Source: Actinobacteria bacterium UBA7524
GTDB lineage: Bacteria; Actinomycetota; Coriobacteriia; Anaerosomatales; UBA912
Direction of reading: 5' to 3'
DNA length: 64,000 nucleotides
NCBI GenBank assembly: GCA_002478275.1
Contig: DLMY01000031.1
Span: forward strand, 1-64,000
Each line of letters begins with the position of its first letter. The stretch's first letter is position 1. The position numbers are program-made. Positions 60,001-64,000 of this stretch are shown piece after piece.

Positions 60001-63000
60001 CTGAAGCTCCTTGATCTTCGGCTGGATCCTTTGCAGTTCGTACATCGAGCGAGTCTGCTTGATAGTCAGGGGAGCAAGAGCGAGCCTCAATGCCACCGTC
60101 AGAAGTACAATGGCCCAACCGTAATCCCCCGTGACAGAGAACAGGTACTGTAGACCGCCGAAGATCAGATCCTTGAATGCCTGCCACACGTCTTATGTAA
60201 CCTCCTAGGTCACGTCAGCCCAATTTCCAGAATCAGGAAACATAGCCGCTTTATGGAACGGGGTCCGGGCCTCCTGGATTCCAGGGATGGCACCTGGCTA
60301 GCCTCTTCATCGCAAGCCAACCCCCTCTGATCACACCATAACGCTCAACTGATGTTATCGCATACGAGGAACAGGTGGGGGAGAAGCGGCAAACTGCTGG
60401 GAACAGCGGGGATACCAGTATCTGGTAACCTCGAATGATGGCGGAGACGGCTCTTCTGGGAATGCCTCTCACTTTGGAACCTCAAGGTCCCTGAGCAGTC
60501 GCCCGATCTCTCGCTGCGCCTCTCCCAGCTCTGACCTGAGAAGCGCCTTCCGCGCGACTATGAGCACGTCATATCCAGGCCATGGTCCGCCGAGAGCCCG
60601 AACCATCTCTCGGAGCAGGCGCCGAATCCTATTCCGTAAGACAGCGTTTCCGAGAAGGCGACCGGCGATGACCGCGACGCGCCCCTGGTTCTTTCCTGGC
60701 TCAGAAGTAGGATTGACGAAGACGACCGCGTGGCTATTAGCCCGCCGGTCTCCCGTACGGAACAGAGTGTCGATGTCGCGAGCGGATCGTATTGTCCTGA
60801 ACACCGGATCCTCCAGGTGCAGGACGCCGGACGGTGCCTAAGCTCCTAAGCGCTCAGTACCCTACGTCCCTTGCGGCGACGTGCTGCCAGGATCGCTCGG
60901 CCCGCCTTCGACGACATGCGGTGACGGAAGCCGTGCTTCTTGGCACGCTTCCGAGTGTTAGGCTGGTAAGTACGCTTCACAGTGTTTCCTCCATTCGGCC
61001 CGGCTGGCCGGGCGCAAAGCCCGACGATTGTATCCACCTCCCACCCGCATGTCAACGGTAGCCCGGGGGGACAGGGCTCGCGAAACCTCGACTGCGGGGC
61101 CAAGGGTGCCCGATCGTCCCCCTCTGTCCGCCCTGACTTCGGGCTGTCCGTCTACAACCTCTCTGCCAAATGGCTCTCGCAAATACTCCAGAATCTGTGG
61201 ACAATGTGGAAAACCCAGGACTTACGCTTGTTGAACCTGTGGATAACCCGGGTCCCGTCGTTGTTGCCCCCACAGCCCTCTGCTACAATCCCCACCACTT
61301 GACACTATGAAGTACTCGATTGTGTGGACGTTGAAAACCGCTGTTCGATATGGGTATTTGTGCTTGATGCTTCGCATGACGCCTTCGAGGTCCGTCGCGT
61401 TTCCACACCCTGAACCCACTTTGGCGACTGATGGACGATCCTTTCCACAGGACCCCATCTTCTCATAGCCAGAAAAAGGTGGGGAATGCACCTGGAAACG
61501 GCGACGGACCGGTCTTACTGGGTGGTTTTCAGGCCTGTATGGGAGGTTGAAGGTGAGTTTTCCACACATGTGGAAAGCTTTGTGGATAAAGATGAAAAGG
61601 CCACGTCCTGCGCGTTCAGCCACGGTCGACCCTTTTGAGATGATGCAGGTAGATACGGCTCTTTACAGGTACTTAAGGAATCGTCGGTACAGCGGTCTGT
61701 GTTGATAAGCATGTGGACGTTGTGGATGCTCGTGAAAGGCCCAGGGGTTGAGCTTGTTTCCAGCACATACGAACCAGGGTGTGGTTTCGCCTCACCTTTC
61801 CATAGCGGACCCGCCTGCAGAACCTACACCTGCGGACGGAATCACCGTGCGCCTCGCGGTCTATGACTCTGGCGTTGCCGCCCCGCGGATTCAGGACGTC
61901 CGAACCTCGACTCCCGATGAGATGATTGAAAGCTTGAGCTCGCTGGTGTACGACGTGGCCCGCTCTCAGGGAGGCGATCTTCCTTATACCGTTGTGCGCG
62001 AGATCGTGGAGAACCTGATCCACGCGGACTTCAACGAGACCGTGGTGTCCGTGCTCGACAATGGGAGCATCGTGCGTTTCGCCGACCAAGGCCCCGGAAT
62101 CCCTCACAAGGACCGGGCTCTGATGCCGGGCTTCACAACAGCGAGCCACGCCATGAAGCAGCTCATCCGGGGAGTTGGCTCGGGGCTTCCCTTGGTCAAG
62201 GAGTACCTTGAGCACCAGGGTGGGAGTCTGTCGATCGAAGACAACCTGTGCTCAGGAACCGTTGTCACTGTCACTTCCCGGCAAACGGTTCCGCAGGGTT
62301 CACCCGATCGTGTCGTGCCCGGGACCCACGGCGTCGGGGTTGAAGGCGAGCTCTCACTGTCCGATCGTCTCTTGGAGGTTCCTGCACTTCCTCGAATGTC
62401 TACCAGACACAAGAAGGTTCTCTCACTTCTCTTAGAACTCGGCGAGGTCGGACCCACCCTCGTCTCGAAAGAGTTGTCCGTCGGTCTTTCGACCGCATAT
62501 CGGGACCTGTCGTTTCTTGAGACCCACGGACTGATTGAGTCAGACGCTGCCGGCAAGCGCGTGCTCACAGATCTTGGATCGACCTGCCTTGACAGTCTGT
62601 TCGCGTAGGAATGGGAGCATGGTGAAAACTGGAGCAACAACCGCGGCGGAAGATCTCGGTCGTGTTTGGTCAGACGTCCTGGAGGTCGTCAAGTCTGAAC
62701 TGAACACCCCTACGTTCAAGACCTGGTTCGAACACACGACGCCTCAGGATATCGACGGCGATCGTCTTGTTGTCGCGGTTCAGAACGACTTCGCCCGCGA
62801 CTGGCTTGAATCAAGGTATTCGGGACTACTTAAGAGCGCTCTCGAACAGGTCACTGGGGTCCCGTTGGGTCTCGAGTTCACGGTTCCGGAGAACTACGTC
62901 GATCTCAAGCCCCCAAGTGATGAGACAGACACTCAACCGGTCCCTCCTGAGCCTCACGAATTTGAAGCGGCCCACTCAACCCACTCACCTAGGCTCTCCT

Positions 63001-64000
63001 TCGATCCTAAGTACTCCTTTGAGGCATTCGTCATCGGGGCGTCTAACCGTTTCGCTCATGCGGCAGCCCTCGCGGTGGCAGAAGCCCCGGGCCGCGCCTA
63101 TAACCCTCTGTTCGTATATGGCGGGGTAGGTCTGGGTAAGACCCACCTCCTGCATGCAATCGGGCGCTACGTCCAGATGAGCTTCCCTCACATGAAGGTG
63201 AAGTACGTTACCTCTGAGCAGTTCACCAATGACTTCATCAAGTCGATCAGCGACAAGAGGCGCATCGACGGTTTCCGGCATCAATACAGGACCAACGATG
63301 TTCTGCTGATCGACGACATCCAGTTCCTCAAGGGTAAGGAAGGGACCCAGGAGGAGTTCTTCCACACGTTCAACACCCTTCAGCAGGCGGGCAAGCAAGT
63401 GGTCCTGTCATCCGATCGGCCTCCGAAGGATATCGCCACACTGGAAGAGCGACTCCGGAGCCGCTTCGAGATGGGCCTTATCACCGATATCCAGCCCCCT
63501 GACCTTGAGACCAGGATCGCAATCTTGAAGAGGAAGGTGGAGGTTGAGAATCTTGATGTCCCGTATGAGGTTCTCTCATATGTAGCAGACAGGGTCTCCT
63601 CGAACATTCGAGAGCTTGAAGGGGCCCTCATTAGGGTCGTCGCGTACAGTTCTTTGACTCGACATCCCGTCAGTATCGATATAGCCCGGAGTGTATTGAA
63701 AGACATCTTCCCTGAGCGTTCTATCAGACCTATATCGGTCTCCACTATCCAAAGAGAGGTCTGTAAGTTCTACTCGATAAGCCATCCCGAACTCGTCGGA
63801 GGTAAGCGCTCCCAGAACATCGTCTATCCTCGGCAAGTGGCGATGTATCTTTCTCGGGAGTTGACCGATCTCTCGCTTCCTCGAATAGGTAGTGAATTCG
63901 GGGGACGGGATCACACGACTGTGATGCACGCAACCGCGAAGATCACGAAACTCATGAATGAAGAGAGAGAGGTTTACAACCAGATCCAGAACCTAACCAA

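What a model noticed while it worked through the whole genome (the two positions that open the first line are those of the whole stretch)
61196..64000. A GHKL-ATPase/winged-helix gene lies between the DnaA-box cluster and dnaA, conserved across Coriobacteriia
dnaA (62619-64022) is preceded, 10 bases upstream and on the same strand, by a 253-aa gene (61847-62608) with a histidine-kinase-type ATP-binding domain and a C-terminal winged helix but no phospho-acceptor domain; the DnaA-box cluster (61196-61708) lies upstream of it. The gene and its position directly upstream of dnaA are conserved through the class, making it a candidate replication-initiation factor or regulator.
Evidence so far: HATPase_c 44.6 bits aa 46-144, TrmB/IclR HTH weak aa 185-250; Csa3-type HTH 31 bits; six DnaA boxes (<=1 mismatch) vs 0.06 per kb genome-wide; homologues in 27 of 30 relatives and 32 of 40 class genomes; dnaA directly downstream in 10 of 10 genomes checked; 3,204 homologues with generic names only; PDB only distant kinase ATP domains. 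The finding spans contig positions 61196 to 64022; this window holds only 61196 to 64000 of it.
(Added by a program. Inside this text positions count along the whole contig: contig position 1 is position 1 of the stretch shown here. "Call 12" and the like, gene names such as g00115 and contig names such as C1 are that model's own, and its searches are not shown. The text may have been shortened before it was handed on; [...] marks where a part breaks off. The agent that wrote the report below was given it as the finding of a first reader that could run no searches.)

Follow-up and report, generated by a model that had tools for sequence, protein, structure and literature searches.

The report
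Unknown ATPase gene partnered with dnaA
Directly in front of the replication-initiator gene dnaA lies a conserved, unstudied gene for an ATP-binding, DNA-binding protein that is kept there across a large part of the phylum Actinomycetota, which makes it a good candidate for a new regulator of chromosome replication.

Summary
An ORF ending at 62608 encodes a histidine-kinase-type ATP-binding domain (HATPase_c, 44.6 bits) and a C-terminal MarR/Csa3-like winged helix. It has no phospho-acceptor domain. dnaA starts 10 bases after its stop. Upstream lies the only DnaA-box cluster in the genome, at the GC-skew minimum.

Three corrections:
- The gene probably starts at TTG 61748 or 61754 (286 or 284 aa), not at 61847.
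- The family is not confined to Coriobacteriia (139 of 151 genomes). Strong homologues occur in 122 of 367 sampled genomes of other Actinomycetota classes. It was not found in several large families.
- The constant feature is the pairing with dnaA, not nearness to the box cluster. The dnaA frame can start within 150 nt of the gene's stop in 146 of 156 loci. One lineage has 18 boxes downstream of dnaA and 3 upstream.

The gene is single-copy in the six genomes checked and its divergence tracks that of DnaA. Its ATP-binding residues are invariant. It has been lost in a few lineages.

Function is inferred. My best guess is an ATP-gated DNA-binding regulator of dnaA expression or initiation (0.4). 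No paper, Pfam, NCBIfam or PADLOC family describes it.

The parts
60846..60980 (-). rpmH (ribosomal protein L34), transcribed away from the gene of interest
   Evidence: Translation read. tblastn found it divergently upstream of the gene in 47 of 50 loci and 92 of 109 loci.
61027..61055 (-). rpmH promoter, TTGACA-17-TACAAT
   Evidence: 11 of 12 consensus matches. Both hexamers are conserved in the alignment of 12 intergenic regions.
61196..61246 (-). DnaA-box trio (TTGTCCACA, TTTTCCACA, TTATCCACA), all in one orientation
   Evidence: The boxes are nearly invariant across 12 same-order loci. GTTTTCCACA occurs in 88 of 137 intergenic regions.
61281..61289 (+). Putative extended -10 element (TGCTACAAT) of a promoter reading towards the gene and dnaA
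   Evidence: Conserved block. TG[CT]TA[GCT]AAT occurs in 46 of 137 intergenic regions on the forward strand and in 0 on the reverse strand. Promoter activity is inferred, not shown.
61330..61339 (+). Conserved GTTGAAAACC block, 38-39 nt after the -10 element; role unknown
   Evidence: A near-identical motif (CTTGAAAAA) is also present in loci that lack the gene, so it is not a site specific to this protein.
61399..61452 (+). Two further DnaA-box-like sites (TTTCCACA cores at 61402 and 61444)
61558..61589 (.). Inverted pair of DnaA boxes (TTTTCCACA and TGTGGAAAG) followed by TGTGGATAA
   Evidence: This is the most conserved block of the intergenic alignment.
61700..61729 (-). TTATCAACA box and two TGTGGA cores, ending about 20 nt before the start codon
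61748..62608 (+).
   Evidence: It has a single strong copy in the genome.
61748..61840 (+). N-terminal short aromatic motif followed by a disordered tether (residues 1-31)
   Evidence: pLDDT 52-60. A start codon followed by K-x-F-[FYW] was found in 56 of 158 loci: 49 of 58 close relatives and 7 of 100 distant ones. In about 40 of those distant loci whose N-termini were printed, several show related aromatic starts.
61841..62275 (+). Beta-hairpin (residues 32-53) plus histidine-kinase-type Bergerat ATP-binding domain (residues 56-176)
   Evidence: HATPase_c 44.6 bits and 44 of 44 family members. pLDDT is above 90. Structural matches are to the catalytic domains of HK853, CpxA, BCK and PDK. The G1, lid, G2 and G3 motifs align with KinB and CheA.
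62276..62401 (+). Variable disordered linker (residues 177-218)
   Evidence: pLDDT 49-63. Mean column conservation is 0.17. The linker is expanded in other families, where open frames reach about 450-520 aa.
62402..62602 (+). Winged helix-turn-helix (residues 219-285)
   Evidence: Structural match to Csa3 (Z 13.2, rmsd 1.2 A over 74 residues) and to MarR (Z 12.7, rmsd 1.2 A over 71 residues). TrmB matches 30 of 44 members, best E 3.5e-9.
62619..64000 (+). dnaA (continues to 64022 on the contig), starting 10 nt after the gene's stop codon
   Evidence: No terminator-like site lies between the two genes.

Best explanation
The gene encodes an ATP-dependent DNA-binding regulator made together with DnaA.

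Shown:
- It is a real, single-copy gene whose divergence tracks that of dnaA.
- It sits head-to-tail against dnaA, with gaps short enough for co-transcription and translational coupling.
- Its product has an intact histidine-kinase-type ATP pocket, a flexible linker and a MarR/Csa3-like winged helix.

Inferred: the pair is transcribed from a promoter embedded among DnaA boxes. ATP binding or turnover in the Bergerat domain changes the self-association or conformation of the protein. That in turn changes how its winged helix binds DNA in the dnaA promoter and origin region. The protein would thus tune dnaA expression or DnaA assembly at the origin to the cell's nucleotide state. Whether it acts as a repressor, an activator or a remodeller of DnaA-DNA complexes is open.
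For: Synteny:
- dnaA lies directly downstream on the same strand in 49 of 50 loci and 108 of 109 loci.
- The first possible dnaA start codon overlaps or lies within 60 nt of the gene's stop in 130 of 156 loci, and within 150 nt in 146 (median 12 nt).
- The pairing holds in 19 of 20 genomes from 17 families outside the class; the 20th ends at a contig end.
- There is one strong copy per genome in the 6 genomes checked.
- Pairwise distances of the protein and of DnaA correlate (r 0.70; 0 of 999 permutations reach it). Shared descent alone would give this.

Protein:
- The N-box Asn, G1 Asp and glycines and G2 glycines are invariant in 44 sequences at 34-59% identity. The Glu four residues before the Asn is kept in at least 90%.
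- The winged helix keeps basic residues R190, R222 and R241 in at least 90% of sequences, in a conserved STAYRDL helix.
- The fold is confident (pLDDT 86).

Setting:
- This is the only DnaA-box cluster of the genome, and it sits at the GC-skew minimum.
- A forward-only conserved extended -10 element lies among the boxes.
- No terminator lies before dnaA.
- ParAB and DciA are present, so the protein does not replace them.
Against: - There is no direct evidence of DNA binding, ATP turnover, co-transcription or any replication phenotype.
- After masking DnaA boxes, no conserved motif specific to loci that carry the gene was found. The one strong extra motif (TTGAAAA, 38-39 nt after the -10 element) is also present where the gene is absent. 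A DNA target is therefore not identified.
- The gene has been lost with the box cluster retained in two genomes of one genus (G010, G022). It is also absent from one 100%-complete genome with a transposase fragment upstream of dnaA (G039). It was not found in several large families of the phylum (0 of 27, 0 of 13, 0 of 11, 0 of 11). Initiation therefore works without it.
- The E-x-x-x-N motif is also typical of Bergerat-fold protein kinases (recalled from the literature), which fits the rival reading.
Confidence: 0.4

Rival explanations
1. The protein acts on a protein rather than on DNA. It would be a Bergerat-fold kinase or partner-switching factor, working like SpoIIAB, RsbW or the mitochondrial BCK and PDK kinases. 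It would bind or phosphorylate DnaA, or another factor, using the winged helix or the N-terminal aromatic peptide as a docking module.
For: - There is no phospho-acceptor (DHp) domain, yet the ATP pocket and the Glu four residues before the N-box Asn are conserved.
- BCK and PDK are among the structural matches and have the highest identities, 23-27%.
- The anti-sigma F factor appears in the profile search at E 3.5e-4.
- One source names a homologue 'anti-sigma regulatory factor (Ser/Thr protein kinase)'.
- Tight spacing or overlap with dnaA is the pattern often seen for proteins that form complexes.
- A conserved N-terminal aromatic motif on a disordered tether looks like a docking peptide.
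Against: - HATPase_c_2, the anti-sigma kinase family, matched only 1 of 44 members, at E 0.0079.
- The domain aligns best with true histidine-kinase catalytic domains, KinB and CheA.
- No fused form with DnaA was found among longer proteins, although that is a weak search.
- The winged helix keeps the basic residues expected of a DNA binder.
Confidence: 0.25
2. The gene is a conserved regulator or housekeeping factor with no role in replication. It would simply share the strongly expressed dnaA promoter and have been kept there by descent.
For: - Conserved gene order near the origin includes many genes unrelated to initiation, such as rsmG, jag, yidC and rnpA.
- The correlation with DnaA distances is what shared descent gives.
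- The gene is dispensable in some lineages.
- The main box cluster can lie on the other side of dnaA (L150).
Against: - The adjacency survives across lineages whose proteins are only about 35% identical, while rpmH linkage is less constant (92 of 109 loci).
- Gaps are very short or overlapping.
- No second copy occurs elsewhere in the 6 genomes checked, and no full-length relative was found on plasmids.
- A position this fixed for a gene this variable in sequence usually reflects coupled expression that matters.
Confidence: 0.2
3. The protein is an origin-organising or segregation factor. It would be an ATP-dependent clamp or bridge on origin-proximal DNA, working like MORC-type GHKL ATPases or a centromere-binding protein, rather than a regulator of initiation.
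For: - GHKL ATPases commonly dimerise on ATP binding (established for GyrB, MutL, Hsp90 and MORC; recalled from the literature).
- The conserved N-terminal beta-hairpin could serve as a dimerisation strap.
- A plasmid centromere-binding winged helix is among the structural matches (Z 11.6).
Against: - No transducer domain follows the ATPase.
- ParA and ParB are present nearby.
- The ATPase is of the histidine-kinase type rather than the GyrB, MutL or MORC type.
- Nothing ties the gene to parS sites.
Confidence: 0.1

Closest known systems
Catalytic (CA) domain of sensor histidine kinases and CheA P4 (e.g. KinB 3D36, HK853, CheA 1I58)
   Same: Same Bergerat fold and the same motifs: N-box Asn, DxGxG, a lid with a PGF(T/S)T element as in CheA, GxGxGL, and GT.
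   Different: There is no DHp/HisKA domain with an acceptor histidine, no sensor domain, and no response regulator next door. It has an extra N-terminal beta-hairpin and a C-terminal winged helix.
DIP2311 of Corynebacterium diphtheriae (PDB 3LMM, structural-genomics entry of unknown function)
   Same: It is the only solved structure that matches both domains in order, a GHKL-type domain followed by a winged helix (Foldseek E 3e-7 over 278 columns; VIA Z 14.1 over 211 residues).
   Different: DIP2311 chains are 477-556 residues long, with a large N-terminal part that has no counterpart here. The rmsd is 7.4 A and identity 15-17%. It does not appear in either sequence-profile search of the PDB. 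Its function is also unknown, so the match gives architecture only.
MarR-, TrmB- and Csa3-type winged helix DNA-binding domains
   Same: The C-terminal 70 residues superpose on Csa3 at Z 13.2 (rmsd 1.2 A over 74 residues) and on MarR at Z 12.7 (rmsd 1.2 A over 71 residues). Pfam TrmB matches 30 of 44 members.
   Different: Only the winged-helix core is shared. The dimerisation helices of MarR and the CARF domain of Csa3 are absent.
SpoIIAB/RsbW anti-sigma kinases and BCK/PDK protein kinases
   Same: These are Bergerat-fold proteins that work without a DHp domain and act on another protein. The Glu-x-x-x-Asn arrangement is shared (the comparison is recalled). Matches are weak.
   Different: HATPase_c_2 matched 1 of 44 members. 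No STAS or sigma-factor partner is encoded beside the gene. Those kinases have no winged helix.
Known regulators of DnaA and oriC (Hda, YabA, SirA, DiaA/HobA, Soj; the origin-binding response regulators MtrA and CtrA)
   Same: This is the functional niche proposed here: a protein that modulates DnaA or the origin. MtrA and CtrA are also winged-helix proteins that bind origins (recalled from the literature).
   Different: None of these families appeared in the Pfam, NCBIfam or PADLOC scans. As far as I recall, none is a GHKL protein and none is encoded as a fixed upstream partner of dnaA.

Membership tests
GHKL / HATPase_c (Bergerat-fold ATP-binding domain) | Pfam HATPase_c match above the curated cut-off | tested here: met
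   44.6 bits against a cut-off of 26.4. 44 of 44 family members match.
GHKL / HATPase_c (Bergerat-fold ATP-binding domain) | N-box Asn, G1 DxGxG, G2 GxGxG and G3 GT motifs | tested here: met
   Asn, Asp and the glycines are invariant in 44 sequences. They align with the same motifs of KinB, YycG and CheA.
GHKL / HATPase_c (Bergerat-fold ATP-binding domain) | Alpha/beta sandwich fold | tested here: met
   The AF2 model has pLDDT above 90 over residues 32-176. Foldseek matches histidine-kinase, BCK and PDK catalytic domains at probability 1.00.
Two-component sensor histidine kinase | DHp/HisKA dimerisation domain carrying the acceptor histidine | tested here: not met
   There is no HisKA-type hit at E<=1. 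The model has a beta-hairpin, not a helical hairpin, before the ATP domain.
Two-component sensor histidine kinase | Cognate response regulator encoded alongside | tested here: not met
   The neighbours are rpmH and dnaA in the window and in 92 of 109 and 108 of 109 loci respectively.
Anti-sigma factor serine kinases (SpoIIAB/RsbW, HATPase_c_2) | HATPase_c_2 profile match | tested here: not met
   1 of 44 members matches, at E 0.0079. The window protein has no match at E<=1.
Anti-sigma factor serine kinases (SpoIIAB/RsbW, HATPase_c_2) | STAS antagonist or sigma-factor partner | not tested
   None is encoded beside the gene. I did not search the genome for one.
GyrB/MutL/Hsp90/MORC-type GHKL ATPases | Transducer (ribosomal S5 domain 2-like) domain after the ATPase | tested here: not met
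   The ATP domain is followed by a disordered linker and the winged helix. MutL matches cover only the N-box region.
MarR family transcription regulators | Winged helix-turn-helix core | tested here: met
   Z 12-13, rmsd 1.1-2.1 A over 69-74 residues.
MarR family transcription regulators | N- and C-terminal dimerisation helices flanking the winged helix | tested here: not met
   The aligned part is 69-74 residues of chains of 130-160 residues. The protein ends with the winged helix.
DIP2311-like proteins (PDB 3LMM) | GHKL-type domain followed by a winged helix | tested here: met
   Z 14.1 over 211 residues, model residues 30-281 against chain residues 236-496.
DIP2311-like proteins (PDB 3LMM) | The N-terminal ~235 residues of that protein, and detectable sequence similarity | tested here: not met
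   The protein has only about 30 disordered residues before the hairpin. 3LMM is absent from the profile searches of PDB sequences at E<=0.01 and at E<=1e-5.
Known DnaA/oriC regulators (Hda, YabA, SirA, DiaA, Soj, DnaD and others) | Sequence membership in one of their families | tested here: not met
   None is among the Pfam, NCBIfam or PADLOC matches.
Known DnaA/oriC regulators (Hda, YabA, SirA, DiaA, Soj, DnaD and others) | Binding to DnaA or oriC with an effect on initiation | not testable with these tools
   This needs biochemistry or genetics.

The most novel reading that the evidence does not exclude
The protein is a new class of replication-initiation regulator. It would be a histidine-kinase-derived ATPase or kinase with a winged helix, made stoichiometrically with DnaA, that binds the origin and dnaA promoter region or DnaA itself and gates initiation by ATP. 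It would have been present in the ancestor of a large part of the Actinomycetota, including the gut Coriobacteriia, and lost in the lineages that lack it.
Probability: 0.3. Interest if true: 0.85.

Novelty: new variant of a known kind. Interest (0 to 1): 0.66.

Why it matters
Control of DnaA is known in detail only for a few model bacteria, and each uses different, unrelated factors. Here a single uncharacterised gene sits in the most telling place possible, fused in operon fashion to dnaA beside the DnaA boxes. It stays there across lineages whose proteins have diverged to about 35% identity. These include common human gut genera (records labelled Slackia and Gordonibacter) and deep-branching environmental groups.

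If it regulates initiation, it would be the first Bergerat-fold (GHKL) protein in that role. It would also give a direct handle on how these poorly studied bacteria couple replication to energy state. The hypothesis is cheap to test: one deletion or depletion with an origin-to-terminus read-out, and one gel shift with and without ATP. If the gene proves unrelated to replication, the case remains a well-documented example of an extremely stable gene pair.

Tried and rejected
- **Complex prediction of the protein with DnaA (collected).** The verdict was 'no answer' (score 0.15 against a mark of 0.32). This counts neither for nor against binding.
- **RNA evidence for co-transcription.** No RNA holder was listed. 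The one run listed is DNA and may be the source sample, so no reads were laid.
- **Replacement of a helicase loader or of ParAB.** Rejected. DciA (73 bits), ParA and ParB are all present.
- **Defence-system membership.** Rejected. PADLOC matches only the Csa3/CasR-type HTH.
- **Plasmid-borne relatives.** Five partial kinase-domain matches, none covering 80% of the query.
- **Fusions with DnaA or other domains.** One longer protein (520 aa) was found, with no DnaA domain. This is a weak search.
- **A DNA motif specific to the protein.** k-mer enrichment over 137 intergenic regions gave only DnaA-box variants. After masking, it gave the rpmH promoter, the extended -10 element and a TTGAAAA block. 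The TTGAAAA block is also present where the gene is absent.
- **Checking submitter labels from other phyla.** MAG records labelled Bacillota, Betaproteobacteria, Bacteroidaceae, Acutalibacteraceae and Desulfuromonadales carry the gene beside dnaA. The tool gives no kinship for such records, so the labels could not be checked. I do not count them as evidence of spread beyond the phylum. Other phyla were not searched.
- **Literature.** Nine searches found nothing on this family. Passages of PMC4255298 and PMC4148983 mention the origin region only in general terms. A 2013 paper on signature proteins of Coriobacteriia, cited in PMC4255298, is not in the library and could list this protein.
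Full report
**What is in the window**

The region is a textbook chromosomal origin neighbourhood with one extra gene. On the minus strand lie parB, parA, rsmG, jag, yidC, yidD, rnpA and rpmH. On the plus strand the gene of interest ends at 62608 and dnaA starts at 62619. Further along the contig come recF, dciA and gyrB.

The rpmH promoter is a near-perfect TTGACA-17-TACAAT at 61055-61027. Between it and the gene lie six DnaA boxes with at most one mismatch. Eleven TGTGGA/TCCACA cores lie there in all. Genome-wide there are 110 such boxes in 1.81 Mb, which is 0.06 per kb. No other 600-bp stretch holds more than three. No box lies between 64 and 70 kb of the contig. The cumulative GC skew of the contig turns at about 63 kb.

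**The gene and its start**

In an alignment of 12 intergenic regions, their ATG or GTG start codons line up with the window's TTG at 61754, six bases after another TTG at 61748. A purine-rich ribosome-binding site precedes them. I take the gene as 61748 (or 61754) to 62608, giving 286 or 284 aa.

A start codon followed by K-x-F-[FYW] occurs in 49 of 58 loci with at least 50% identity and in 7 of 100 more distant ones. In about 40 of those distant loci whose N-termini were printed, several show other short aromatic starts such as MKNYFQ, MESYFQ and DFYPFV.

**The protein**

An AlphaFold2 model built on 78 sequences has a mean pLDDT of 86. Its parts are:
- a disordered N-terminus (residues 1-31);
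- a beta-hairpin (32-53);
- a Bergerat ATP-binding domain (56-176);
- a disordered linker (177-218);
- a winged helix (219-285).

The ATP domain is of the histidine-kinase type. Evidence for this:
- HATPase_c scores 44.6 bits and matches 44 of 44 members.
- Foldseek matches HK853, CpxA, BCK and PDK.
- Profile alignment to KinB, YycG and CheA puts the G1, lid, G2 and G3 motifs in register.

In 44 sequences at 34-59% identity to the window protein, the N-box Asn, the G1 Asp and the G1 and G2 glycines are invariant. The Glu four residues before the Asn is kept in at least 90%. There is no DHp/HisKA domain.

The winged helix superposes on Csa3 at Z 13.2 and on MarR at Z 12.7, both at rmsd 1.2 A. 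TrmB matches 30 of 44 members. The only solved structure that matches both domains in order is DIP2311 (3LMM), at Z 14.1 over 211 residues. That protein is much larger, shows no detectable sequence similarity and has no known function.

**Distribution**

With a profile of 14 sequences, 139 of 151 genomes of the class have the gene at E<=1e-10. Among genomes at least 90% complete the figure is 136 of 141.

The twelve genomes without it are four from the window's own order and eight of the ten sampled from one family (f19). I looked at five of the twelve:
- Two of them also lack a dnaA match, so the whole region is probably unassembled.
- One 100%-complete genome has a transposase fragment upstream of dnaA and no copy of the gene anywhere.
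- Two genomes of one genus in f19 have rpmH about 800 nt upstream of dnaA, with 3-4 DnaA boxes and no gene between them. This is a true loss.

A sample of 401 genomes of the phylum gave 167 with a match at E<=1e-8. Of the 367 outside the class, 133 matched. By my count of the table, 122 of these are at E<=1e-30. They fall in families where nearly every genome has the gene, for example 32 of 33, 30 of 30, 17 of 17 and 9 of 10. Other large families have none: 0 of 27, 0 of 13, 0 of 11 and 0 of 11.

Named records carrying the gene include Candidatus Hakubella thermalkaliphila, which NCBI places in Actinomycetota incertae sedis. They also include MAGs labelled Thermoleophilia, and Slackia and Gordonibacter.

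A search of 1.84 billion cluster representatives found 383 clusters at E<=1e-30 and 536 at E<=1e-10. A look-up in the ESM Atlas gave clusters whose commonest phylum is always Actinomycetota. Other phyla were not searched directly.

**Synteny**

dnaA follows on the same strand in 49 of 50 loci and 108 of 109 loci. Each exception stops at a contig end. The two sets overlap in part, since identical sequences occur in both.

Among 20 genomes of 17 families outside the class, 19 show the pairing and the twentieth ends 23 nt after the gene.

Over 156 loci, the distance from the gene's stop to the first possible start codon of the dnaA frame has a median of 12 nt. There are 35 overlaps, 95 gaps of 1-60 nt, 16 of 61-150 nt and 10 longer. 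This distance is a lower bound on the true gap.

rpmH lies divergently upstream in 92 of 109 loci. The gene is single-copy in the six genomes I checked; further matches there are ordinary kinase domains or two halves of a frame-shifted copy.

Pairwise distances of the protein and of DnaA correlate (r 0.70). That is expected from shared descent and is not evidence of co-evolution.

**The DNA upstream**

The rpmH-to-gene spacer has a median of 5 boxes in 137 loci. The 800 nt upstream of the gene hold more boxes than the 800 nt after dnaA in 78 of 104 loci, an equal number in 20 and fewer in 6. One of the six, L150, has 3 boxes upstream and 18 downstream. What is constant is therefore the pairing with dnaA, not the gene's place relative to the main box cluster.

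The same-order alignment shows, in order:
- a box trio;
- a conserved TGCTAGAAT-like extended -10 element (61281-61289 in the window);
- a TTGAAAA block 38-39 nt further on;
- two single boxes;
- an inverted box pair plus a third box;
- boxes that run up to the ribosome-binding site.

The -10 element occurs on the forward strand only, in 46 of 137 loci. If it is the promoter, the gene and dnaA share a leader of about 450 nt studded with DnaA boxes. That is an arrangement suited to autoregulation. It is inferred, not shown.

**How it most likely works**

Shown: a real, conserved, single-copy gene that is locked to dnaA. Its product has an ATP pocket under strong constraint and a winged helix with conserved basic residues.

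Inferred: the protein is made with DnaA and uses ATP binding or turnover to switch the DNA binding of its winged helix in the dnaA promoter and origin region (confidence 0.4).

The main rival is a protein-directed kinase or partner-switch acting on DnaA or another factor (0.25). In its favour are the missing DHp domain, the E-x-x-x-N motif, the matches to BCK, PDK and the anti-sigma F factor, and the tethered N-terminal aromatic peptide.

A role unrelated to replication (0.2) and an origin-organising clamp (0.1) cannot be excluded.

Against any essential role: the gene has been lost in some lineages, and several large families of the phylum lack it.

**Novelty**

No Pfam, NCBIfam or PADLOC family covers the whole protein. 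Sources name it only 'ATP-binding protein', 'histidine kinase', 'hypothetical protein', 'anti-sigma regulatory factor' or 'predicted HTH transcriptional regulator'. Nine literature searches found nothing on it.

The domains are ordinary. What is new is the combination and the fixed partnership with dnaA. I rate it a new variant of a known kind, a factor associated with DnaA and the origin. It has a fair chance (0.3) of being a new class of initiation regulator.

Noticed in passing
window 61748-61771, and N-termini of homologues in loci L009-L167: The extreme N-terminus carries a short aromatic motif (MKxF[FY] in 49 of 58 close relatives; related forms such as MKNYFQ, MESYFQ and DFYPFV in other lineages). 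A disordered tether follows it. It looks like a docking peptide.
   Followed up: partly
window 61281-61289 and 61330-61339: A conserved extended -10-like element (TGCTACAAT) occurs on the forward strand only. A TTGAAAA block follows at a fixed 38-39 nt downstream. The block also occurs in loci that lack the gene, so its role is unknown; it could be a leader element or a second promoter.
   Followed up: partly
L150 (G161:C1:2330499-2339260): In this lineage outside the class, 18 DnaA boxes lie in the 800 nt downstream of dnaA and only 3 upstream of the gene. The main box cluster seems to sit on the other side of dnaA while the gene keeps its place.
   Followed up: partly
L169 (G039:C39:716-5113), positions 3-761: A 100%-complete genome of the same order lacks the gene. 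It has a transposase-like ORF fragment about 0.7 kb upstream of dnaA, which suggests loss by a mobile-element rearrangement.
   Followed up: partly
L170 (G010) and L171 (G022): Two genomes of one genus (f19) have rpmH and dnaA about 800 nt apart, with 3-4 DnaA boxes and no gene between them. In G010 (L170) the dnaA ORF is 513 aa, about 46 residues longer at the N-terminus than in the window.
   Followed up: partly
G090:C1:309177-309897 and G231:C3:8377-9302: In these two genomes the ATPase and winged-helix parts match in two separate adjacent frames. This could be a frameshift, a sequencing error or a genuinely split gene. G008 has one in-frame TAA inside the match.
   Followed up: no
Loci of families f18, f20 and f22 (e.g. 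L044, L053-L055): The linker between the two domains is expanded to 150-250 residues, and in L044 it is rich in Pro and Gln. Open frames reach about 450-520 aa while both domains stay conserved.
   Followed up: no
window 62606-62621: The stop codon of the gene overlaps a purine-rich stretch (TAGGAATGGGAG) directly before the dnaA ATG. In some relatives (L134, L165, L167) the two frames overlap or abut. This fits translational coupling.
   Followed up: partly
L105, L108, L112, L147, L068 (genome contigs records): MAG records labelled Bacillota, Acutalibacteraceae, Betaproteobacteria, Bacteroidaceae and Desulfuromonadales carry the gene beside dnaA. L068 has too little upstream DNA to show rpmH. 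Either the labels are wrong or the family reaches other phyla; I could not tell which.
   Followed up: partly
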